Shown here: positions 38,052 to 52,533 of the stretch, one piece after another
Layout of the letters: each line of letters opens with the position of its first letter
Position numbering within the stretch: the first letter of the stretch is position 1
Assembly: GCA_043798995.1 (NCBI GenBank)
Contig: JAZDOD010000009.1
Coordinates: 14,015 to 78,014 of the forward strand
Source of the DNA: a bacterium
Lineage (GTDB): Bacteria > Patescibacteriota > Patescibacteriia > JAACEG01 > JAGUWE01
Length of the DNA stretch: 64,000 nucleotides
Reading direction: 5' to 3'
Program-made: the position numbers and the translations under genes
Notes under the pieces: model-generated
What the model was told of the DNA's origin: nothing
Database searches by the model: none
What the model saw: only the letters and a program-made list of their open reading frames with translations

Positions 38052-39071
38052 ATGCCAAAAGACATAAAAAAAGAGAGTAAAAGTCAGGAGCCCAAAAGAG
38101 AAATTGCCGAAGCCATCAGCCAGATTAGGCAACGTTTTGGCGAGGGCTCAATTATGAGATTAGGAGAAGCCAAATCAATGAAAGTTGATGCCATTCCAAC
38201 CGGTTGCCTTTCTTTGGATATTGCTTTAGGAGTCGGTGGACTGCCGCGGGGTAGAGTGGTGGAAATTTTTGGACCCGAGGCCTCGGGTAAAACAACACTG
38301 GCCCAGCATGTCGTCGCCGAGGTGCAAAAAATGGGCGGGATAGCGGCTTTTATTGATGCTGAACATGCCTTAGATCCTGATTACGCCAAGAGAATTGGAG
38401 TCAATATTAATGATTTATTAATTTCCCAGCCGGATACCGGGGAACAAGCGCTGGATATTGTTGAGACCTTAGTGCGTTCCAATGGTGTGGATGTTATTGT
38501 AATTGATTCAGTGGCGGCGCTGACTCCCAAGGCAGAAATTGAAGGCGATATGGGAGATCACTTTATCGGACTGCAGGCTCGCCTGATGAGCCAGGCGCTT
38601 AGAAAACTAACAGCCATTATTGGTAAATCTCGCACTGTGGTCATTTTTATTAACCAGCTTAGAATGAAAATCGGTGTTTTTTTTGGCAATCCAGAGACCA
38701 CCACCGGCGGAGTTGCCTTAAAATTTTATTCCTCGGTTCGTATTGAGGTTCGCCGCAGCGCTCAAATCAAAAAAGGAGAACAAATTATTGGCAACCGGGT
38801 TCGGGCCAAAGTGGTGAAAAATAAAGTAGCTGCGCCATTTAAGAACACTGAATTTGATATTATGTATAACGAAGGCATTTCTCTTTCGGGTGATGTTTTA
38901 GATACAGCCACTAATCTTGGCGTTATAACTAAAGCCGGCAATACCTACAATTATGGTGAAATAAAACTCGGCGTTGGTCGCGAAGCAGCCAAGCAATATT
39001 TACGAGAAAACCCTAAACTCATCCAGGAAATCAAAGCCGCTACCTGGCAGGCGGTGAAGAAAGAGGAATAA
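38052..39071 (+). CDS. recA: recombinase RecA
   Basis: [11 protein letters not shown] Walker [12 protein letters not shown]1/L2 loops. Full-length match. Confidence 0.95.
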
Positions 39072-39183
39072 AAAAATAGAAATTATTTCGCATAATATAC
39101 AATATCAAGTATATTATATGCAAACACTTCACATAAAAACTACTTAGGCGACATTATCTATACAAACATTAAAAGAAGAATGT

Positions 39184-39510
39184 ATGTGGCAAATAATTGG
39201 CTGGATAATTTGGGGCTTATTAGCTTTTTTTGCTATTTCATGGGCATTTGGTTGCCGAACATATGCTAAATCGGGGCAAGGATTTCAATTGGCAACAGGT
39301 GTTCAAACTTTCTATTTTTGGATTATTGCCTTTCTTTTTTTAGTATTTGAGTGGAATAAACTTCACATACTTTGGGTAACTCCGATTGCGTTTTTCACAG
39401 CAAATTTATTGGTTCATGGAGGAATTCCTATTTTGTCACCTCTTGTATTATTTTCCACAAGAATATTTTTATCCATTATTCTTATTGGAGTTAGAAAACA
39501 TAATTCATAG
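39184..39510 (+). CDS. small membrane protein, hypothetical
   Basis: 108 aa with three or four TM helices. First gene of the accessory array. Confidence 0.4.
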   Translation: MWQIIGWIIWGLLAFFAISWAFGCRTYAKSGQGFQLATGVQTFYFWIIAFLFLVFEWNKLHILWVTPIAFFTANLLVHGGIPILSPLVLFSTRIFLSIILIGVRKHNS

Positions 39511-39534
39511 ACAACGTCACCCAACAGTTTATAT

Positions 39535-39554
39535 GGGGTGAGGCATTTGATATT
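39535..39554. repeat. left arm of the 20-bp perfect inverted repeat bracketing gene 39560..39883
   Basis: ggggtgaggcatttgatatt. Its reverse complement occurs at 39881-39900 (19/20). It ends 5 nt before the ATG. Confidence 0.6.
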
Positions 39555-39559
39555 TTTTT

Positions 39560-39883
39560 ATGAATAAGAAAATTCAAACAATTACGATTGTAAAAATTAT
39601 TGCTATTATAATGCTCTTTTGGGCGTTGGCTGATAATCCGTACGGATATTATCAAATTTTGCGTTGGGTTATATGCGGACTAACTGGATATTCGGCTTAT
39701 CTCGCCTATGAGCAAGGTAAAATTGCTTGGGCTTGGATTTTGGGAATTACGGCAATACTTTTTAATCCAATAGCACCTATTTACCTTGATCGTGAAACTT
39801 GGTCAGTATTGGATATAATCGCCGCCACAATAATTTTTACAAGTATATTTAAAATGGAAGTAGTTGCGAAAAAAGAGGAATAA
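39560..39883 (+). CDS. small membrane protein, hypothetical (IR-bracketed cassette gene)
   Basis: 107 aa with three TM helices. Precisely flanked by the 20-bp inverted repeats. Confidence 0.4.
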   Translation: MNKKIQTITIVKIIAIIMLFWALADNPYGYYQILRWVICGLTGYSAYLAYEQGKIAWAWILGITAILFNPIAPIYLDRETWSVLDIIAATIIFTSIFKMEVVAKKEE

Positions 39884-39900
39884 TATCAAATGCCTCACCC
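39881..39900. repeat. right arm of the 20-bp inverted repeat; begins at the stop codon of 39560..39883
   Basis: aatatcaaatgcctcaccc(a). Followed by the motif ctcacccaaattt, which recurs at 42111-42123 after another gene stop. Confidence 0.6.
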
Positions 39901-39982
39901 AAATTTTTGCTCCGTTTCACTTTGCAAAAACTTCAGATACACAGATACGTTTAGCTGAAATAAATTTAATTTTTATTTTTTT

Positions 39983-41239
39983 ATGTCAAATAAATTCAAT
40001 CCATTTAAGCCAAATAGTCCTGTGTTTACGGGAATGTTTGCAGGTAGAGAAAAAGAAATTAACGGTATAGCCAGATCATTATTCCAAACAAAAAATGGAA
40101 ATCCGAACCACATTTTACTTGTTGGTGAACGAGGTATCGGCAAAACATCTCTTTTGTCTTTAGCTAATAATTTTGCAAAAAATGAAATAATATGGGATGA
40201 ACAAAATTATAATTTTTTAACCATCCAAATTAATCTTTCAGAAAAAATGACTATGGCCGATTTGGCTGTATCCTTAAAAATTAAAGTCGAAAGAGAATTA
40301 GAAAAAATAAATCCAGAGATTACATTAATAAAAAAATGCTGGGATCATATTCTTAAAATCGAAGCAGGTGGAATTAAGTATAGAGGTTCCGATAATATGC
40401 AAGATGAAGAACCACAAATTTGTGAAAAATTTACGCATTCTCTAGTTGATACTGTTAAAAAATTAACTCAAGATACTGCAGCGAGCGAAGTTGGTATAAC
40501 CCAAAAAAAAGATGGGATGGTAATTTTAATAGATGAGGCCGACAGAGCAAATAAGTCTCTAAATTTAGGATCATTTTTAAAAAACTTAACGGAAGCTCTA
40601 AGTGTTGAAAATTGTAATAAAATATTATTTATACTTGCTGGACTACCCAATATACGTAAAATCCTTCTAGAAAGTCACGAATCATCATTGAGATTATTTC
40701 AAGAATATGAATTGCCTCCACTCTCAAAAAATGAGACAGATGAAGTAATAACGAGAGGCATTAAAGAAGGAAATGAAGCATCTAATTCAAAAATTACAAT
40801 AGGCCGCAAAGCTTTGGATTTAATTTATATATATTCAGAGGGTTATCCTCATTTTGTACAACAAATTGGGTATTCTTGTTTTGAGGTAAATTCTGATGAA
40901 GAAATTGACGAAGAAGATATTAAAAAAGGCTTTTTTATGAAAGGAGGCGCCTTAGACCTAATTGGTAATAGGGGTTACAAAAAGTTATATTATTCAGACA
41001 TAAACGTTGATTCGCAAAGAGAAATTCTTGATATTATGGCCGATAATTGGAATGATTGGGTATCGCGAGACAATATAATTAAAAAATTTTCAGGAAAAAA
41101 AACCGCACTTAATAATGGGTTAAGAGCATTAAAAGAAAAAAGTATTATTTTAATAAAAGAAGGTGAGAGGGGAAAATATAGATTACAATGGGCGAGTTTT
41201 GCTTTTTGGATAAAGAATCATAAAAAAATACAAAAATAA
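39983..41239 (+). CDS. AAA-type ATPase (archaeal-ATPase / ORC-Cdc6-like P-loop NTPase) with C-terminal winged-helix-like domain
   Basis: Walker A GERGIGKTSLL. Walker B MVILIDEADR. The C-terminus RDNIIKKFSGKKTALNNGLRALKEKSIILIKEGERGKYRL looks like a wHTH. The exact family is not assignable. Confidence 0.5.
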   Translation: MSNKFNPFKPNSPVFTGMFAGREKEINGIARSLFQTKNGNPNHILLVGERGIGKTSLLSLANNFAKNEIIWDEQNYNFLTIQINLSEKMTMADLAVSLKIKVERELEKINPEITLIKKCWDHILKIEAGGIKYRGSDNMQDEEPQICEKFTHSLVDTVKKLTQDTAASEVGITQKKDGMVILIDEADRANKSLNLGSFLKNLTEALSVENCNKILFILAGLPNIRKILLESHESSLRLFQEYELPPLSKNETDEVITRGIKEGNEASNSKITIGRKALDLIYIYSEGYPHFVQQIGYSCFEVNSDEEIDEEDIKKGFFMKGGALDLIGNRGYKKLYYSDINVDSQREILDIMADNWNDWVSRDNIIKKFSGKKTALNNGLRALKEKSIILIKEGERGKYRLQWASFAFWIKNHKKIQK

Positions 41240-41254
41240 AAATTAAATTAACAT

Positions 41255-41345
41255 CAGCTAACAGCGTGTATCGGGTTCGGTCTTCTCCGAAAGCCTCCGC
41301 CAAATTTGCCTCCGCTACGCTACGCAAACTTTAGATATTCCTAAA
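41255..41345. repeat. post-stop junction element, copy C of the TAACAGCG...AACGTTA family
   Basis: Starts gctaacagcgtg and ends ctaaacgttaagg. Internal direct repeat cctccgcc/cctccgct. Immediately follows the stop at 41239. Confidence 0.35.
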
Positions 41346-41385
41346 CGTTAAGGTGAAATTTAATTTTTAATTTAATAAAATTGAT

Positions 41386-41817
41386 ATGGACTCAAACAAA
41401 TTGCCTCGTAACATTATTTTAGTTAGCATCTTAATAATCGCCGTATCCATTGGTTATTATTATTTAATTTTTCTGCCTCAAAAAGAACGTAATAGAATAG
41501 AAGCCGAAAATCAAAAACGCGTTGAATCTATTAAAAATGATTGCATTGACAGAGTTTTAAAAGAAATGAAAAACGAACATCCTAAAATGGAAACTGAGGA
41601 AATCACTAGTTTTCGAATTGCTAGTGATCGAGGTTGTTTTATTGAGGCGGGTTGCATGAAAGGTGTTCAAGATAATTATTTTAAAGCTAAATTTGATGAG
41701 TGTAATAATGAATATTATAATACTTGTTTAGCAGGACTTAAAAACAAAGTAGATGAAATGATTGAGGCAGAAAAATTAAAAAGAATCAATGAATGTATAA
41801 ATCTATATTCAAATTAA
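41386..41817 (+). CDS. hypothetical membrane-anchored Cys-rich protein
   Basis: N-terminal TM anchor and a C-terminal domain with six Cys residues (CIDRV...CFIEAGC...CNNEYYNTC...CIN). Confidence 0.4.
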   Translation: MDSNKLPRNIILVSILIIAVSIGYYYLIFLPQKERNRIEAENQKRVESIKNDCIDRVLKEMKNEHPKMETEEITSFRIASDRGCFIEAGCMKGVQDNYFKAKFDECNNEYYNTCLAGLKNKVDEMIEAEKLKRINECINLYSN

Positions 41818-41820
41818 AAA

Positions 41821-41860
41821 TATAACTTCACTTAACACGGTTTATCCGATTCGCTCGCTA
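41821..41860. repeat. post-stop junction element, copy A (ATAACACGGTTTATCCGATTCGC)
   Basis: cacttaacacggtttatccgattcgctcgc, 4 nt after the stop at 41817. A near-identical copy B lies at 43600-43645. Confidence 0.45.
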
Positions 41861-41881
41861 AAAATATTAATTCGAAAATTT

Positions 41882-42076
41882 ATGGACAATAAACAATTAA
41901 CTAAGGATGATCTATTTAGGTGGCTATCAAATAAAATTGGTGGCGCGTCTATGGACGTTATTTTAGAAACTTTTTTAAAATTTAGTGATAGAGAATCATT
42001 ATTTTGTTTTGTAAAAGAGCTTGAAAATGAAGGGCTTATTTACAAATATAATGGTGAATTTTGGATAAAAAAATAA
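41882..42076 (+). CDS. small hypothetical protein (64 aa, winged-helix-like)
   Basis: MDNKQLTKDDLFRWLSNKIGGASMDVILETFLKF...GLIYKYNGEFWIKK. No family assignable. Confidence 0.35.
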   Translation: MDNKQLTKDDLFRWLSNKIGGASMDVILETFLKFSDRESLFCFVKELENEGLIYKYNGEFWIKK

Positions 42077-42195
42077 ATGCCTATTTTATATTCATAAATA
42101 TTTTTAGCTCGCTCACCCAAATTTGGTAGTAGTGAGCACTGGCGCGTAAATTATACCACTGCCAAATTTCGGCTATCCCAAGCCATTAGCCGCTA

Positions 42196-42831
42196 TTGCC
42201 TTTAAAGAGGATAAAAAATATGGGATTATTTTCACTTGATTATCAAAACATGCCAGGCCAGTGTATCTATGCCAAAGGTGGCTTGAAGTTCCGTGCCGAC
42301 GAAGATGCACTACGCCACTACTTTGCCCCAATTTTGCCTTATGTGTCTCTAAACGATCTTATCGGCGAAAGTGTTTTCTGGTCTATGCTACCATCAACAG
42401 TGGCTATCTGGACATTTCCTTTTCTTCTTCATAGTCAAGGAATCCTATTTGCTATAATCGCCACACTAGCCCTCTATTTAGTTGCGGAAATAGGTCATAT
42501 GGCTTTCTATATAAAGCCGCTCAATTACGTAGTTTTCATTTTAGGAAATCAGTTCCTCTCGTTGGTCGTTTATATTATCTGGGCAGTAATACTCATTCTC
42601 TCTGGTTCTATAGTTGGAGCTATAATTTTGGGGGTGTGGTTTTTGTTTTTTGCGCTTGGTCTTAGTCAAATAATATTTCTTTTGCCAATAATTCCCTTCC
42701 TTACAAAACTTTTTTCCTTACCACCATCTGATCAGGTGTTAAAAAACGTTGGCTGGCATTGTGCTAGAAAATTTGGAATTGACCCAACTAAATGGAAGAT
42801 GTATGACCAAAAAACAGGCAACGGCGGCTAA
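42196..42831 (+). CDS. hypothetical membrane protein
   Basis: 211 aa with about five TM helices. Confidence 0.4.
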   Translation: MPLKRIKNMGLFSLDYQNMPGQCIYAKGGLKFRADEDALRHYFAPILPYVSLNDLIGESVFWSMLPSTVAIWTFPFLLHSQGILFAIIATLALYLVAEIGHMAFYIKPLNYVVFILGNQFLSLVVYIIWAVILILSGSIVGAIILGVWFLFFALGLSQIIFLLPIIPFLTKLFSLPPSDQVLKNVGWHCARKFGIDPTKWKMYDQKTGNGG

Positions 42832-42900
42832 CAGCGGATAAAAGGGAAATTAAAGATTTCCCCAAATTGCCTTCGGCAACTTCTTTTATCCACAAAACGT
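42826..42900. repeat. post-stop junction element, copy D, imperfect ~70-bp palindrome containing a perfect DnaA box
   Basis: gctaacagcggataaaag...cttcttttatccacaaaacgtta. The arms ggataaaag and cttttatcc pair, and there is an internal hairpin gggaaat...atttccc. It overlaps the stop at 42831. Confidence 0.4.
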
Positions 42901-42924
42901 TATATGAAATAATAAAAAAATTTA

Positions 42925-43596
42925 TTGCTTATGAATGACTTTAATGATATTGTCGAGAGACATAGAAAAAGAGGCGAAGAAATTGTAGAAAAGTTTAAAC
43001 AGGACTCAGAAAGGAGGGAAGCCAAAATGGCTAAAGGCGTAGAGCGACTTGAGGATTTATCAATGCAGAATTTCGCCTCTTGGCGAGATTATCTATACAA
43101 ATACTTCAGCGTTATCTTATTACTTATCGGAGCCACAGGAGTTTTGCAATCGGAAAAGTTTAATGACCCATGGTTTAAAGCAGGTATATTCACAACTCTG
43201 GTTGGAGTCTTCATTGGCTATGTTTTTATCAATATATATTTCTATATAGAAAGAAAGTGGCTCCAAGCGCAAAATATCATTGGCTTAGAAGGAACTTACT
43301 CTTTACATGAACACCCCAAAGCAAAAACGGGCGATATCCGAGAAGCAATTATCCTCCATCAGCTAGATTATATAGAACAGATCAAGAAAAGATTAGAGGA
43401 AGCTAAAGCGAATAATGACAAAAAAATGATAAGACATTACAAAAAGGTTATTAGGATTAATAAGCGATTAAACTTTTCCATCAAATTTACTGGGGAGCAG
43501 TTTGGTATAATAGAACACATTTGGATATCAGGGACAATACTAAGCTTATTCCTAACGATCTCTGGTATAGCAATTGTTTTCTTAAACATTCGATAA
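42925..43596 (+). CDS. hypothetical membrane protein with N-terminal coiled-coil segment
   Basis: 223 aa with four TM helices. Confidence 0.4.
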   Translation: MLMNDFNDIVERHRKRGEEIVEKFKQDSERREAKMAKGVERLEDLSMQNFASWRDYLYKYFSVILLLIGATGVLQSEKFNDPWFKAGIFTTLVGVFIGYVFINIYFYIERKWLQAQNIIGLEGTYSLHEHPKAKTGDIREAIILHQLDYIEQIKKRLEEAKANNDKKMIRHYKKVIRINKRLNFSIKFTGEQFGIIEHIWISGTILSLFLTISGIAIVFLNIR

Positions 43597-43599
43597 AAT

Positions 43600-43645
43600 T
43601 TTTGATTACATCCAATAACACGGTTTATTCGATTCGCGTTTGTTA
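43600..43645. repeat. post-stop junction element, copy B (ATAACACGGTTTATTCGATTCGCG), ends in GTTAAAT
   Basis: ccaataacacggtttattcgattcgcgtttgttaaat, which is 22/23 identical to copy A over the core. Starts 4 nt after the stop at 43596. Confidence 0.45.
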
Positions 43646-43966
43646 AATAAATTATTTTTTAATAATTACAGTCCTATGAATTTAGTAAGCACTAACCTCA
43701 AAAAAATCATTTTAGTAACTAGTGTAATATTAATGGTTGGAACAGTTAGTACAAGGGCATTGTTTCTACGAGAAGGGAATATTATAATTGGTTCCCTGTT
43801 CTCAATAGGATTTGGACTTTTAATCTCTCTTGGAGTATTGATTACTATACAAAAAATATTTTTCAATAAAAATATTAAAAAATGCTCTTTTTGTTCTGAA
43901 GAAATTTTAGCTGATGCAATCAAATGTAGATATTGCGGTGAATTTTTAAATAAAAAAATAAAATGA
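43640..43966 (+). CDS. membrane protein with C-terminal zinc ribbon
   Basis: Two TM helices, then CSFCSEEILADAIKCRYCGEF. Confidence 0.4.
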   Translation: MLNKLFFNNYSPMNLVSTNLKKIILVTSVILMVGTVSTRALFLREGNIIIGSLFSIGFGLLISLGVLITIQKIFFNKNIKKCSFCSEEILADAIKCRYCGEFLNKKIK

Positions 43967-44130
43967 AAGACTATATTTTTTATCCATTACTTACAGCCAT
44001 TTTCTGGATTCTTATGTCTTTATTTGTATATAAAGACGATTCGACTCAAGAAAAAACTAAGATGGCAATTGGCGCCGGTGTTATCGGTTTGATTATGGGC
44101 ATTTTTTTCTATTTTTTTGGATTTTACTAA
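43963..44130 (+). CDS. small TM protein (55 aa), start overlaps upstream stop (ATGA)
   Basis: MKDYIFYPLLTAIFWILMSLFVYKDDSTQEKTKMAIGAGVIGLIMGIFFYFFGFY. Below the ORF-track size cutoff. Confidence 0.3.
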   Translation: MKDYIFYPLLTAIFWILMSLFVYKDDSTQEKTKMAIGAGVIGLIMGIFFYFFGFY

Positions 44131-44382
44131 TTTCATTCAAAAATAAAAATATTTAGTAAACGCTCATCCAAATGCGCTTTCGCTAAAGCTCCAGCGCTCC
44201 AGGTGTTATACAAAAAAGTTCAACCAAAAAAGACGGAAAATATAGCCGTCTTTTTAAAATGTCATCCTGATCCGCCAGTCGGCGGATTCAGGATTTCTTA
44301 ATTAATATATCAAAATGTCGAGATAAGTTCGTCCCAAAGAGATTCTGAAACAAGTTCAGAATGACAAATTAATTATTTAAAC

Positions 44383-44447: not shown

Positions 44448-44663
44448 ATGCGTGAAATAATCAATATTTCCCTGCCTTCTCCGCTGGTCAAAACCGTTAA
44501 AAAAGCGGTTAAAGAAGGCGATTATATGAGTGTTAGCGAATTTTTTCGTGATTTACTGCGGGACTGGCAGAAAGGTAAATTATTAAGCGAGCTCAACGAA
44601 AGCCGCGAAGAAATTAGATCCGGCAAGGGCAAAACCTTAAAATCCTTAAAGGATTTAAGATAG
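44448..44663 (+). CDS. ribbon-helix-helix (ParD/CopG-like) antitoxin
   Basis: 71 aa. INISLPSPLVKTVKKAVKEGDYMSVSEFFRDLLRDWQ has a beta-alpha-alpha pattern. It lies 8 nt upstream of a RelE/ParE-family toxin gene. Confidence 0.6.
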   Translation: MREIINISLPSPLVKTVKKAVKEGDYMSVSEFFRDLLRDWQKGKLLSELNESREEIRSGKGKTLKSLKDLR

Positions 44664-44671
44664 TTTTCTGT

Positions 44672-44932
44672 ATGAATATTGTTTATAGCTCAAAATTTGC
44701 GCGTGAATACAGAAAATTACCTAACAATATAAAAACCATTGCCGAGCAACAAGAAAAAATATTTCGCAAAAATCCTTTTGACCAAAAACTAAAAACTCAC
44801 AAACTAAAAGGCAGGTTGAAAGGATTTTTATCTTTTTCTATTGGTTATCAGTACCGAATAATTTTTGAATTCGGAAAAGATAAAAAAACCGTCTATTTTC
44901 ATTTTGTTGGTAACCATGGTATTTATCAATAA
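44672..44932 (+). CDS. RelE/ParE-family toxin (type II TA)
   Basis: 86 aa. KTHKLKGRLKGFLSFSIGYQYRIIFEF...KKTVYFHFVGNHGIY matches the RelE/ParE/YafQ pattern (KL.G....E.RIG.YR.I..I..D..V.I..IGHR..IY). Confidence 0.7.
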   Translation: MNIVYSSKFAREYRKLPNNIKTIAEQQEKIFRKNPFDQKLKTHKLKGRLKGFLSFSIGYQYRIIFEFGKDKKTVYFHFVGNHGIYQ

Positions 44933-45227
44933 CAAATCAATAACCACATTAAGTATAACCAAAAAAGACGGATTACATTTTCCGTCTTTTTTGATGTCAC
45001 CCTGAACTTGTTTCAGGGTCTCTTTTAGGACTTCCATAGATGCTGAAATAAATTCAGCATGACAGATAAAAAATTGTTCGAGATTGCTACTCCGCCAGAG
45101 GCGGATCGCAATGACATTTTAGTTTAAGTTTTAAAATTAGTTCATTAAAAATTATTTAAAAATTGTCCACCGGAGGCGGATCCGCCTTGGGCGGAAAAAT
45201 TTAAAATTTAAAATTAAAAATTTTAAA

Positions 45228-51758: not shown

Positions 51759-52016
51759 TTACTTTTTATTTAAATAATTTTTTAATCTTTGTTTTAAAAA
51801 TCTTTTTCTTATGCCACTTTTTAGATATTTTTCTCTTTGTTTTGCGTCTTTTTTATTTAGACAGGCTTCGTAGTAAATTAGTTTTAAAGGCCTTCTAAAT
51901 TTTGTTGATAAATTAAGTCCTTTATTATGCTGCGTAACTCTGTTTTTTAAGTCATCCGTATAACCAGTGTAAAAGTTATTATCTTTTGAACTTTGGAGAA
52001 CGTAAGTATAGTACAT
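51759..52016 (-). CDS. GIY-YIG nuclease superfamily small protein (UPF0213-like)
   Basis: MYYTYVLQSSKDNNFYTGYTDDLKNRVTQHN contains the GIY-(N10)-YIG core. Confidence 0.65.
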   Translation of the reverse strand: MYYTYVLQSSKDNNFYTGYTDDLKNRVTQHNKGLNLSTKFRRPLKLIYYEACLNKKDAKQREKYLKSGIRKRFLKQRLKNYLNKK

Positions 52017-52132
52017 AATTTTAGGGTGGACCCCGTAAGAAGTCAGCCCAACGCTACTTTAATAGAAACTGAGAATTTAAAAATCAATAGGGCACTTTTT
52101 ATATAAAGATACATTTGTCTGACTTCTTACGG

Positions 52133-52533
52133 GGTGGAGATGAGGGGAGTTGCACCCCTGTCTAAAGATTCTCGTTTAAAAACTTCTACAAATTTAGTCC
52201 TATTTTTTTCTCGGCTTAAAATAAAAAATAAGACAAAAACTTTTAAGCCAGAGTCTTATTTGTGGTTCGATAAATTAGCAAAGACCGCTCTAATTTATCT
52301 AGTCTAATAATTATGACACCGAAACTACCTATTAGACATCAGTAGCCCCAGTGGGCCGTTTCAATTAAGCAACAGCCATTGCCAAAGAAGGAGTGGCAAT
52401 TGCTTGCGCAATCGCAGTCCTTACTTTGTTAACAAGTGTTTTTGCACTTATAATTTGTCAGCGGTTTAAAGAGCAACTAACAGCTCCATTTGCCGTTTTT
52501 AAAAAGAACCTCTGGCGAAGCTTAGGCATCCCC
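52133..52533 (-). ncRNA. ssrA: tmRNA (SsrA) candidate, directly downstream of smpB
   Basis: 5' end GGGGAUGCCUAAGCUUCGCCAGAGG resembles the tmRNA start GGGGcUGauUcuGgaUUCGaCgGG. 3' end AGGGG-UGCAACU-CCCCU-CAUCUCC-A-CC gives a T-arm plus acceptor strand pairing with the 5' GGGGAUG (one G-U). An in-frame tag-like ORF ends ...SLAMAVA-UAA. A 16-bp perfect inverted repeat (52029-52044 / 52120-52135) lies immediately 3'. Confidence 0.6.

What the first reader, a model, noticed from the sequence alone, without database searches (positions are those of the whole stretch)
39535..39900. Single small gene bracketed exactly by 20-bp perfect inverted repeats
ggggtgaggcatttgatatt (39535-39554) ends 5 nt before the ATG of the 107-aa membrane-protein gene. 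Its reverse complement (39881-39900, 19/20) begins at the stop codon. There are three options. It may be a one-gene transposable cassette (a MITE carrying an ORF). It may be an invertible or excisable segment with recombinase target sites. Or it may be an mRNA-spanning long-range stem that occludes both the RBS and the 3' end.
Basis: seen in the sequence. Interest (0 to 1): 0.55.

Follow-up and report, generated by a model that had tools for sequence, protein, structure and literature searches.

The report
Gene nested in integron-type recombination hairpin
The inverted repeat around this small membrane-protein gene is most likely the closing stem of an integron-style recombination hairpin (attC-like site) that carries a whole gene in its loop, an arrangement about three times longer than the attC size range quoted in the literature, found here in a cassette array of a Patescibacteria (CPR) genome.

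Summary
The repeat is real: 19 bp perfect (39536-39554 / 39882-39900; 21/22 if extended), running from 5 nt before the ATG into the stop codon of a DUF6804 gene. It is not a transposon end or an inversion site. The gene lies between the two halves of an attC-like site (R'' ACCCAAC 39519-39525, R' GTTTAGC 39949-39955). This site belongs to a co-oriented cassette array (39150-44211) inserted after recA. Strains with 93-97% identical RecA have no cassette or different cassettes there. In about 25 metagenomic loci the same module follows at least 12 unrelated ORFs, and similarity ends at the R' G|TT crossover point. ORF-free sites of the same type carry a short stem-loop exactly where the repeat sits. 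Other sites hold unrelated ORFs bracketed by unrelated repeats. The arms are nearly invariant although synonymous sites differ by 26-57%, and a second conserved stem lies inside the coding sequence. Best reading: the repeat clamps a gene-sized loop so that the recombination site can still fold. An RNA-level role is not excluded. The window copy has decayed outer boxes and no nearby recombinase. In related arrays the adjacent recombinase is Xer-like and lacks the integron-integrase domain.

The parts
39125..39154 (+). Lone L'-R'-like half site after recA (CACTTCACATAA...ACTTAGGCGAC). It marks the left boundary of the cassette array. The GTT is mutated to CTT in the window.
   Evidence: Similarity to the near relative L081 ends at 39154, and L081 has an intact GTTGTGCGAAAT. 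It resembles the site next to the recombinase in L005.
39184..39510 (+). First ORF of the cassette: 108 aa, hydrophobic, no Pfam or NCBIfam family.
   Evidence: It ends 2 nt before the attC-like site.
39519..39525 (+). R'' box ACCCAAC (RYYYAAC type), the outer left box of the attC-like site.
   Evidence: Half-site HMM hit 39512-39542. Box consensus in 21 sites. Coordinates.
39527..39537 (+). L'' box GTTTATATGGG. It is decayed: 7/11 complementary to L'.
   Evidence: The counterpart in relatives, GCGTGTATGAG, is 11/11 complementary across the gene.
39536..39557 (+). Left arm of the inverted repeat (19 bp perfect to 39554), in the position of the terminal-structure (VTS) stem.
   Evidence: ORF-free sites have a short stem at this position.
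39560..39883 (+). DUF6804 gene (107 aa), lying in the loop of the site.
   Evidence: Pfam PF20619, E = 5.5e-30. Median dN/dS 0.089 among embedded copies.
39588..39602 (+). 5' arm of a second, internal stem inside the coding sequence (TTGTAAAAATTATTG).
   Evidence: pair I10. Present in 16/17 embedded copies and in none of 15 non-embedded homologues. Synonymous sites are constrained, p = 3.6e-4.
39828..39842 (+). 3' arm of the internal coding-sequence stem (CAATAATTTTTACAA).
39879..39900 (+). Right arm of the inverted repeat. It overlaps the stop codon.
   Evidence: Invariant in 19 related modules.
39895..39905 (+). Family motif TCACCCAAATT that follows the first stem in this attC family.
   Evidence: Present in ORF-free and ORF-bearing sites alike.
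39904..39930 (+). Second small hairpin (TTTTTGC ... GCAAAAA). It corresponds to a longer hairpin 2 in relatives.
   Evidence: Compensatory changes occur in the relatives' hairpin 2.
39934..39944 (+). L' box CAGATACACAG.
39949..39955 (+). R' box GTTTAGC (GTTRRRY type). It holds the inferred crossover point G|TT and marks the end of the cassette.
   Evidence: Half-site HMM hit 39926-39959. In relatives, similarity ends exactly after ACGTT.
41249..41357 (+). Complete short attC-like site of the next cassette. It is chimeric: its L'' and L' do not match.
41823..42195 (+). Second split site. Its halves flank a 64-aa ORF (41882-42076) bracketed by a 15-nt repeat (41857-41871 / 42094-42108).
42826..42905 (+). 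Complete short attC-like site (GGCTAAC ... GTTATAT).
43606..44211 (+). Third split site (weaker). The 5' half is at 43606-43637, ORFs lie at 43640-44130, and CTCATCCAAAT plus the last R'-like GTTATAC lie at 44163-44211. This is the right end of the array.

Best explanation
The repeat is the closing stem of the variable terminal structure of an attC-type recombination site, that is, a site recognised by its folded shape. The site belongs to the cassette that starts after recA (about 39150) and ends at G|TT (39949). The DUF6804 gene occupies the loop of that hairpin.

Shown here:
- The two site halves (R''-L'' and L'-R') lie on either side of the gene.
- In relatives these halves are perfectly complementary across the gene.
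- The repeat sits where ORF-free sites have a short stem-loop.
- The arrangement recurs with unrelated ORFs and unrelated repeats.
- The arms, and a second stem inside the coding sequence, are held constant while synonymous sites diverge.
- The array differs between near-identical strains, with breakpoints at the R' boxes.

Inferred:
- When the DNA is single-stranded, the 15-19-bp stem (helped by the internal stem) zips up the 326-nt loop. L''/L' and R''/R' can then pair and be bound by a tyrosine recombinase, as at integron attC sites.
- The gene thereby travels with, and is copied along with, the recombination site.

The window copy looks like a decaying member. Its outer boxes are degraded, no recombinase lies within 64 kb, and three clustered substitutions have lengthened the stem from 15 to 19 bp.
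For: 1. Anatomy. The intergenic spacers of 39072-44300 carry co-oriented attC-like half sites. The R'' and R' boxes have invariant AAC and GTT, with consensus R-Y-(C/A)-T-AAC and GTT-A-(T/G)-(G/A)-Y, in 21 sites.
2. Partner halves. In 35 consecutive five->three pairs, 30 have at least 9/11 L''/L' complementarity, using about 10 different L'' sequences. The 23 long pairs average 10.1/11.
3. About 19-25 loci carry the same module. Similarity ends exactly after ACGTT, with at least 10 different continuations. At least 12 unrelated upstream ORFs end 2-18 nt before the module.
4. Structure count on 19 modules: 92.4% of cells are paired, against 31-51% when the partner is slid. Compensatory changes occur in L''/L' (GC to AU in three sequences) and in hairpin 2.
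5. ORF-free sites of the same L''/L' type (L068, L015) have a 6-12-bp stem-loop between GGTT(C) and TC(A/C)CCCAAATT, exactly where the repeat lies. The outer repeat bases GGCATTTG/CAAATGCC resemble the stems GCACTTG/CAAATGC of ORF-free sites.
6. Unrelated ORFs sit in other sites, bracketed by unrelated 12-22-nt repeats running from the ATG to the stop codon (L021 twice, L020, L013, window 41857/42094).
7. Constraint. The gene has median dN/dS 0.089 and pS 0.26-0.57, yet the right arm through CCCAAAT is invariant in 19 sequences. The internal coding stem is in 16/17 embedded copies and 0/15 free copies. Third codon positions vary at 2/12 codons inside it against 68/95 outside, p = 3.6e-4.
8. 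Folding. The bottom strand of the L016 module, folded as DNA, forms the R box, L box, hairpin 2 and the repeat (-85.6 kcal/mol against -55.8 +/- 4.1 for shuffles, z = -7.3).
9. Turnover. L079 has 115 nt between recA and the terminator, where the window has 5150 nt. L080 has one other cassette. L081 similarity ends at 39154.
10. A tyrosine recombinase lies divergent to such arrays in L005, L016/17, L082/83 and L084/85.
Against: - No recombination was observed. Everything here is comparative.
- The window copy itself folds only the repeat and the internal stem; its L''/L' is 7/11 and R''/R' match only at AAC/GTT. In this genome the site may be non-functional.
- The repeat helix shows no double (compensatory) substitutions, only conservation, G.U-type and A.C-type single changes. 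So DNA folding cannot be told from RNA folding.
- The site departs from canonical attC in three ways: it is 437-465 nt long against 57-141 bp (PMC3053210); the spacers are 1 nt and 4 nt; and the extra bases sit on the L' arm of the coding strand.
- The associated recombinase lacks the IntI additional domain.
- Why one gene-bearing site follows at least 12 unrelated ORFs is not explained by simple cassette shuffling.
Confidence: 0.68

Rival explanations
1. The stem works mainly in RNA. In the array transcript the two arms pair and close the DUF6804 coding region into a loop. This could occlude the start region, protect the mRNA ends, or create a double-strand-specific RNase processing site. It would resemble the 5'-3' fold-back of hok-type mRNAs or the processing stems around rRNA.
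For: The RNA fold of 39511-39960 contains the stem in both the MFE and the centroid structure (-116.6 kcal/mol, z = -3.9). The arms abut the ATG and overlap the stop codon, and this holds for other embedded ORFs too. Several single changes are G.U-compatible on the coding strand (12 cells). The window copy kept, and even lengthened, the stem although its recombination boxes decayed. attC stem-loops are known to affect cassette translation (PMC8876359).
Against: The stem sits in the standard position of the attC terminal stem and shares its outer bases with ORF-free sites, which needs no RNA role. A.C-type mismatches, tolerated only as G.T on the opposite strand, are about as frequent per event as G.U-type ones. 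There are no transcript data, no promoter or terminator signal above background, and no Rfam family.
Confidence: 0.17
2. The repeat arms are terminal inverted repeats of a small non-autonomous transposon (a MITE carrying one ORF) that inserted here.
For: An exact bracket of a single gene by a 19-bp repeat. The gene is highly similar (75-91% aa) in very different contigs, which suggests horizontal spread.
Against: There is no further copy of the arm in the window. In a scan of 185,579 species genomes the 19-mer appears only by chance in unrelated coding sequence, or as the right arm next to DUF6804. There are no target-site duplications. Homology among loci extends about 25 nt upstream and 55-115 nt downstream of the arms, to the R'' and R' boxes. 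No locus lacks exactly the repeat-bounded segment.
Confidence: 0.03
3. The repeat arms are sites for a DNA invertase, making the gene an invertible on/off switch.
For: Inverted repeats flanking a gene are the classic layout of invertible segments.
Against: In about 25 loci the gene always has the same orientation relative to the flanking R''-L'' and L'-R' halves. No recombinase gene was found in the window by tblastn with the array-associated recombinase. No promoter lies within or beside the segment above background.
Confidence: 0.02
4. The repeat is a by-product. A pre-existing attC hairpin was split by insertion of the gene, and the arms persist without any present function.
For: The outer arm bases match stems of ORF-free sites. 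The window's site is otherwise decayed.
Against: The arms are invariant or nearly so across copies whose synonymous sites differ by 26-57%. A second stem is maintained inside the coding sequence against synonymous drift. Independent ORFs have their own tight repeats.
Confidence: 0.1

Closest known systems
Integron attC sites (59-base elements) and their variable terminal structure
   Same: Both have RYYYAAC-type and GTTRRRY-type outer boxes and a second pair of complementary boxes whose sequence differs from site to site while pairing is kept. Both have a variable central stem-loop and one site at the 3' end of each cassette. Arrays are co-oriented with the ORFs, and the cassette boundary lies at G|TT (features as described in PMC5027507 and PMC3053210).
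   Different: The span is 437 nt here and about 460 nt in relatives, against 57-141 bp (PMC3053210). A complete protein-coding gene lies in the loop. There is an extra conserved linker TCACCCAAATT and a second hairpin, giving a branched rather than a simple hairpin. The spacers are 1 and 4 nt instead of about 5-6 nt. The unpaired bases lie on the L' arm of the coding strand.
CALIN (cluster of attC sites lacking an integron integrase) and sedentary chromosomal integrons
   Same: The window holds five attC-like sites in 5 kb with no recombinase nearby. Cassette content differs between close strains, and the cassettes are mostly small ORFs of unknown function (definition in PMC4889954).
   Different: In related genomes the adjacent recombinase is XerA/XerC-like, about 280 aa, and lacks about 43 residues of the IntI-specific domain. 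The host is Patescibacteria. I found no paper in the searchable library describing integrons there.
Group IIC-attC introns and IS1111-attC insertion sequences (known occupants of attC sites)
   Same: All are foreign coding sequence located inside an attC site (PMC3001079).
   Different: Those are autonomous mobile elements that encode a reverse transcriptase or a DEDD transposase and have their own ends. Here the occupant is an ordinary small membrane-protein gene with no mobility function, and its bracket is the site's own stem.
Short ORFs within attC that aid translation re-initiation (ORF-11-like)
   Same: Both are open reading frames located within a cassette recombination site (PMC8876359).
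   Different: Those are very short ORFs inside normal-sized sites. Here a 107-aa Pfam family member under purifying selection (dN/dS 0.09) fills a gene-sized loop.
hok-type mRNA fold-back (5'-3' end pairing) of small membrane proteins
   Same: Long-range pairing encloses the coding region of a small hydrophobic protein (from my own knowledge of the hok/sok system; RNA fold).
   Different: No antisense RNA, no toxin evidence and no defined transcript ends. DUF6804 homologues elsewhere lack the stems.

Membership tests
Integron attC site | Outer inverse core RYYYAAC and core GTTRRRY boxes | tested here: met
   Window: ACCCAAC (39519-39525) and GTTTAGC (39949-39955). In 21 family sites AAC and GTT are invariant, and the other positions fit loosely (R 20/21; position 5 of R' is T in 12/21).
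Integron attC site | Second pair of boxes (L''/L') complementary, conserved in structure rather than sequence | tested here: met
   Family: 30 of 35 sites have at least 9/11 complementarity, with about 10 different L'' sequences, and compensatory changes occur across the DUF6804 gene. The window copy itself is only 7/11 (decayed).
Integron attC site | Size 57-141 bp with a short variable central stem-loop | tested here: not met
   437 nt from R'' to R' in the window and 460-466 nt in relatives. The loop holds a 324-nt gene (size range from PMC3053210).
Integron attC site | Unpaired central spacer of about 5-6 nt and extrahelical bases on the L'' arm that mark the recombined (bottom) strand | tested here: not met
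   The spacer is 1 nt (AAC-A-L'') against 4 nt (L'-AAAC-GTT). A TT bulge and occasional extra bases lie on the L' arm of the coding strand. Canonical layout as in PMC5027507.
Integron attC site | Cassette boundary (crossover) at G|TT of R' | tested here: met
   Similarity among about 19 modules stops after ACGTT, with at least 10 different continuations. Strain comparison breaks at the R' boxes 39143-39154 and 44205-44211.
Integron attC site | Match to the IntegronFinder attC covariance model | not testable with these tools
   That model is not in Rfam. The window gave only tmRNA and tRNAs at Rfam gathering scores.
Integron attC site | Recombined as folded single strand by the integrase | not testable with these tools
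   Only predicted folding is available: the L016 bottom strand forms all boxes, z = -7.3.
Complete integron | Adjacent IntI tyrosine recombinase with the IntI-specific additional domain around patch III | tested here: not met
   No recombinase in the window. The recombinase next to related arrays scores 207 bits against the 265 cutoff for TIGR02249, and passes NF040815 XerA-type (250.8 against 220). Aligned to VchIntIA (2a3v), it has 22 residues where the integrase has 65.
CALIN | At least two attC sites in a cluster without a nearby integrase | tested here: met
   Five attC-like sites between 39512 and 44211, all on the + strand, and no recombinase homologue in 64 kb. This holds only if these sites are accepted as attC.
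MITE / TIR transposon | Multiple dispersed copies bounded by the repeat, with target-site duplication | tested here: not met
   Two arms only in the window. The genome-collection scan found no other repeat-bounded copy. The flanks TATAT| and |AAATT are not duplicated.
Invertible DNA switch | Both orientations present in populations; invertase nearby | tested here: not met
   One orientation in about 25 loci. No recombinase in the window.
Group IIC-attC intron / IS1111-attC | Encodes a reverse transcriptase with ribozyme, or a DEDD transposase | tested here: not met
   The only ORF is DUF6804, and there is no Rfam intron hit.

The most novel reading that the evidence does not exclude
Patescibacteria carry an unrecognised integron-like system with three unusual properties. 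First, a Xer-type recombinase without the IntI domain sits next to cassette arrays. Second, the recombination sites are branched hairpins that can hold entire genes in their terminal loop, clamped by gene-specific stems, including stems written into the coding sequence. Third, a gene lodged in the site (here DUF6804) is copied wherever that site is attached, which would explain why it follows at least 12 unrelated ORFs. This would give a direct handle on how cassettes acquire their recombination sites.
Probability: 0.4. Interest if true: 0.85.

Novelty: new variant of a known kind. Interest (0 to 1): 0.72.

Why it matters
Integron cassettes are defined as one ORF followed by a short (57-141 bp) folded recombination site, and standard detection tools are built around sites of that size. 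Several things would follow if whole genes can sit inside the hairpin and the site still works.

- Cassette inventories miss such sites and the genes inside them.
- The limits of shape-specific recombination are much wider than assumed.
- A gene can hitch-hike on the recombination site itself. This bears on the open question of how attC sites become attached to genes.

The finding also points to cassette arrays in CPR bacteria, whose genomes are small. There the arrays sit next to a Xer-like recombinase that lacks the hallmark integron-integrase domain.

Tried and rejected
- Exact look-ups of the window's DUF6804, RecA and 108-aa proteins found nothing on record.
- The genome-collection scan for the 19-mer returned 11 hits. 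Nine are chance matches in unrelated coding sequence (for example two loci, L002 and L007, that share similar flanking coding sequence), consistent with about 4 expected for a 19-mer in 596 Gb. Only L005 and L006 were relevant.
- A naive AAC...GTT plus 9-mer complementarity scan gave as many hits in Markov-shuffled sequence (107-126) as in the window (126) and was dropped.
- The viral-contig scan for the invariant right arm gave no hits.
- I tried to tell RNA from DNA folding by counting G.U-type against A.C-type mismatches in the repeat. There were about 4-5 events against 4, so the result is uninformative.
- The promoter/terminator scan around the gene was at background level.
- Pfam gave no family for the other embedded ORFs.
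- Nested cassette insertion was rejected because the loop holds no inner R''/R' boxes.
- Literature searches found no description of integrons in Patescibacteria/CPR and no paper mentioning DUF6804. A search for ORFs within attC returned only short ORFs of the re-initiation type.

Full report
**1. Observation**

The repeat exists as described, with small corrections. GGGTGAGGCATTTGATATT lies at 39536-39554, and its exact reverse complement at 39882-39900. That is 19 bp perfect, or 21 of 22 when extended to 39557 / 39879. The left arm ends 5 nt before the ATG at 39560, and the right arm begins inside the TAA stop codon (39881-39883). With up to three mismatches these are the only two copies in 64 kb; 0.03 are expected by chance, and none of 100 shuffles gave two. 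The enclosed 107-aa ORF is a DUF6804 protein (PF20619, E = 5.5e-30).

**2. Genomic setting**

- Upstream genes are ftsK, a RodZ-like HTH gene and recA (38052-39071). A run of small + strand ORFs follows, to about 44130.
- RecA's closest named relatives are Patescibacteria (Komeili-, Kerfeld-, Buchanan- and Parcubacteria, 78-82% identity), so the host is a CPR bacterium.
- Rfam finds only a tmRNA and two tRNAs in the window.

**3. What the repeat belongs to**

The intergenic spacers between 39072 and 44300 share a repeated architecture:
- a 5' half: ACATC..(C/T)TAAC-A-[11-nt box]-GGTTC;
- a central stem-loop followed by TCACCCAAATT;
- often a second hairpin;
- a 3' half: AACTT-[11-nt box]-AAAC-GTTAGGCGAAAT.

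The two 11-nt boxes of a site are complementary to each other but differ from site to site. This is the logic of integron attC sites: R'' RYYYAAC, L'', a variable terminal structure, L', R' GTTRRRY (PMC5027507, PMC3053210).

Profile HMMs of the two halves find them co-oriented in the window and in related loci. In 35 consecutive pairs, 30 have at least 9 of 11 complementary bases, using about ten different box sequences. AAC and GTT are invariant in 21 sites.

For the finding itself, the 5' half lies immediately upstream of the left arm: R'' ACCCAAC at 39519-39525 and L'' at 39527-39537. The 3' half lies downstream of the right arm: TCACCCAAATT, a small hairpin at 39904-39930, L' at 39934-39944 and R' GTTTAGC at 39949-39955. 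So the gene sits inside the site, and the repeat is the site's inner stem.

**4. Related loci**

A scan of species genomes for the 19-mer gave nine chance hits and two loci (L005, L006). In those two, the exact right arm follows an 89%-identical DUF6804 gene. A metagenome scan gave 67 loci.

- In about 25 loci with at least 84% protein identity, the whole module is conserved. It reads R''-A-GCGTGTATGAG-GTTC-GGCATTTGATATTAT-CTCT-ATG ... AGAGGAATAATATCAAATGCC-TCACCCAAATT-hairpin 2-AACTT-CTCATACACGC-AAAC-GTT.
- In these loci the L'' and L' boxes are perfectly complementary across the gene.
- Similarity stops exactly after ACGTT, with at least ten different continuations. That is where integron cassettes recombine (G|TT).
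- Upstream, at least 12 unrelated ORFs end 2-18 nt before the module.
- More distant DUF6804 homologues (below about 80% identity) are ordinary genes without these flanks.

On an alignment of 19 modules with the ORF interior removed, the proposed structure has 92.4% of cells paired, against 31-51% when partners are slid. Compensatory changes occur in L''/L' and in hairpin 2. The repeat helix itself is 96.6% paired but shows only single-sided changes.

**5. Why the repeat counts as the terminal stem**

- ORF-free sites with the same L''/L' type exist. L068 has GGCTCT-TTCG-AGAGCC, and L015 has a 12-bp stem with a 20-nt loop. Both lie at exactly the position the repeat occupies in the DUF6804 module.
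- The outer bases of the repeat (GGCATTTG/CAAATGCC) resemble stems of other ORF-free sites (GCACTTG/CAAATGC).
- The arrangement is general. In L021 a 22-nt repeat runs from the ATG to the stop of an unrelated 69-aa ORF, and a repeat of about 18 bp brackets an unrelated 107-aa ORF. L020 and L013 give further cases. In the window, a 15-nt repeat (41857-41871 / 42094-42108) brackets the 64-aa ORF 41882-42076. All lie between an L'' box and TCACCCAAATT, with perfectly matched L''/L' in the relatives. Different genes with different repeat sequences in the same position amount to covariation at the level of the whole stem.

**6. Selection**

- The embedded gene is under purifying selection. Median dN/dS is 0.089 over 104 pairs, and the window copy differs from the others at 26-57% of synonymous sites.
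- Against that background, the right arm through CCCAAAT is invariant in 19 sequences, and the left arm nearly so.
- A second perfect repeat of 13-16 nt lies inside the coding sequence (window 39588-39602 / 39828-39842). It is present in 16 of 17 embedded copies and in none of 15 non-embedded homologues.
- Third codon positions vary at 2 of 12 codons inside that repeat, against 68 of 95 outside (Fisher p = 3.6e-4).
- So nucleic-acid pairing across the gene is being maintained, not just the protein.

**7. Folding**

As single-stranded DNA, the bottom strand of the well-preserved L016 module folds into R box, L box, hairpin 2, the repeat and the internal stem (-85.6 kcal/mol; shuffles -55.8 +/- 4.1; z = -7.3). 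The window copy forms only the repeat, the internal stem and the small hairpin (z = -3.4), because its L''/L' (7/11) and R''/R' are degraded. As RNA, the same stem forms.

**8. Population variation**

- Strains with 93-97% identical RecA differ at this locus.
- L079 has 115 nt between recA and a terminator hairpin that matches window 44223-44254. The window has 5150 nt there.
- L080 has a single, different 92-aa ORF followed by GTTATATG and the same terminator.
- L081 similarity to the window ends at 39154, just after the R'-like box (39143-39149; GTT intact in L081, CTT in the window).
- The variable unit is therefore the cassette array bounded by R' boxes, not the repeat-bounded segment. No locus lacks exactly 39536-39900, and none has it inverted.

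**9. Recombinase**

- The window has no homologue of the array-associated recombinase.
- In L005 and L016/L017 a tyrosine recombinase of about 280 aa lies divergent to the array, with the DUF6804 cassette first in L016.
- Its relatives in Patescibacteria keep core genes on one side (RNase HII, IF2, RbfA). On the other side is a hypervariable, outward-reading region carrying attC-like half sites (L082-L085). In L086 and L087 the contig breaks right there.
- The protein passes NCBIfam NF040815 (XerA-type, named 'site-specific tyrosine recombinase/integron integrase'; 250.8 bits against a cutoff of 220). It fails the integron-integrase model TIGR02249 (207 against 265).
- Aligned to VchIntIA (2a3v), it has 22 residues where the integrase has 65, so it lacks the IntI-specific additional domain. 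Its best solved relative is an XerA/XerC-like protein.

**10. Interpretation**

The best-supported account is that the repeat is the closing stem of the variable terminal structure of an attC-type site whose loop has come to hold a gene. The stem, helped by a stem inside the coding sequence, brings the two half sites together when the strand is single.

Shown:
- the anatomy of the site around the gene;
- complementarity of the half sites across the gene;
- recurrence of the layout with other genes;
- sequence constraint on the arms and the internal stem;
- cassette-level turnover at the R' boxes.

Inferred:
- that the folded site is recombined;
- that the Xer-like enzyme does it;
- that the stem is needed for recombination.

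The window copy looks like a decaying, integrase-less array (CALIN-like). Three clustered substitutions (GAGGTTCGG to GGGTGAGG) lengthened the stem from the usual 15 bp to 19 bp. That pattern would fit template-switch correction of a quasi-palindrome, but this is speculation.

The main rival is an RNA-level role for the same stem, and the two are not exclusive. The available mismatches do not discriminate between them. MITE, invertible-switch and nested-insertion readings are rejected (sections 1, 4, 8).

**11. Comparison with known systems**

It works like an integron attC site and meets these criteria: the boxes, structure-not-sequence conservation, the G|TT boundary, and array organisation. 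It fails the size criterion (437-465 nt against 57-141 bp, PMC3053210) and the canonical spacer and extrahelical-base layout. The associated recombinase fails the IntI criterion.

Known occupants of attC sites are group IIC-attC introns and IS1111-attC elements (PMC3001079), and very short ORFs (PMC8876359). I found no report of an ordinary gene in the loop, nor of integrons in Patescibacteria, in the searchable library. Absence from that library is not proof of novelty.

**12. Unexplained**

Why the same gene-bearing site follows at least 12 unrelated ORFs is open. It parallels the unsolved origin of uniform attC sites in large chromosomal integrons. It may mean that the site, together with its passenger gene, is what gets copied when cassettes are made. 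The R'' box variants also re-assort independently of both flanks (L016 against L027), which hints at exchange at the left box as well.

Noticed in passing
L082 7610-9942; L083 42-1613; L084 4464-9169; L085 583-1531; L086 and L087 first ~130 nt: A Xer-like recombinase of about 280 aa in Patescibacteria keeps conserved core genes (RNase HII, IF2, RbfA) on one side. On the other side is a hypervariable, divergently oriented array with attC-like half sites. Several contigs break exactly there. It looks like an integron platform run by a recombinase without the IntI domain.
   Followed up: partly
window 39072-39154 vs L079 11020-11167, L080 2989-3484, L081 2816-2899: Strains with 93-97% identical RecA have no cassette, one cassette or different cassettes after recA, where the window has about 5 kb. 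The breakpoints fall at R'-like boxes, and the same terminator hairpin closes the locus in each.
   Followed up: yes
window 41249-41357: This complete attC-like site is chimeric. Its L'' (GCGTGTATCGG) is of the DUF6804-module type, but its L' (TTTAGATATTCCT) belongs to another type, so only 5/11 bases pair. This suggests a past deletion or recombination between two sites.
   Followed up: partly
window 44448-44932, with 44224-44255 and 44959-44993: A ribbon-helix-helix antitoxin plus a RelE/YafQ-like toxin pair sits just beyond the array. Two copies of the terminator-like hairpin CCAAAAAAGACGG...CCGTCTTTTT flank it, along with GC-rich palindromes (CCGCC...GGCGG). This may be a separate insertion.
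   Followed up: no
window 39523-39527 and 39945-39951; family sites: The spacers are asymmetric (AAC-A-L'' against L'-AAAC-GTT). A TT bulge and occasional extra bases lie on the L' arm of the coding strand, opposite to the usual placement of extrahelical bases in attC sites. Which strand is recombined is therefore unclear.
   Followed up: partly
L023 2715-2850 and L024 599-730: Two DUF6804 modules lose the right arm after AATAATATCAAAG and continue into unrelated GC-rich sequence. These are rearranged copies lacking the 3' half site.
   Followed up: no
L034 1506-1580: This DUF6804 module has a 3' half (CTGCCTTCGGCAATTTCTTTTATCCGCGAAACGTTATATG) taken from another site type, like window 42860-42905. 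The exchange appears to have occurred at the conserved CACCCAAA motif.
   Followed up: no
window 52132-52533 (-): tmRNA gene (Rfam RF00023, 127 bits). A small ORF at 51759-52016 next to it looks like a GIY-YIG nuclease from its sequence; this was not checked.
   Followed up: no
L005 and L006 record titles: Contigs that carry CPR-type cassette arrays and a Patescibacteria-type recombinase are binned as 'uncultured Gammaproteobacteria' MAGs. This is probably mis-binning of array-bearing contigs.
   Followed up: no
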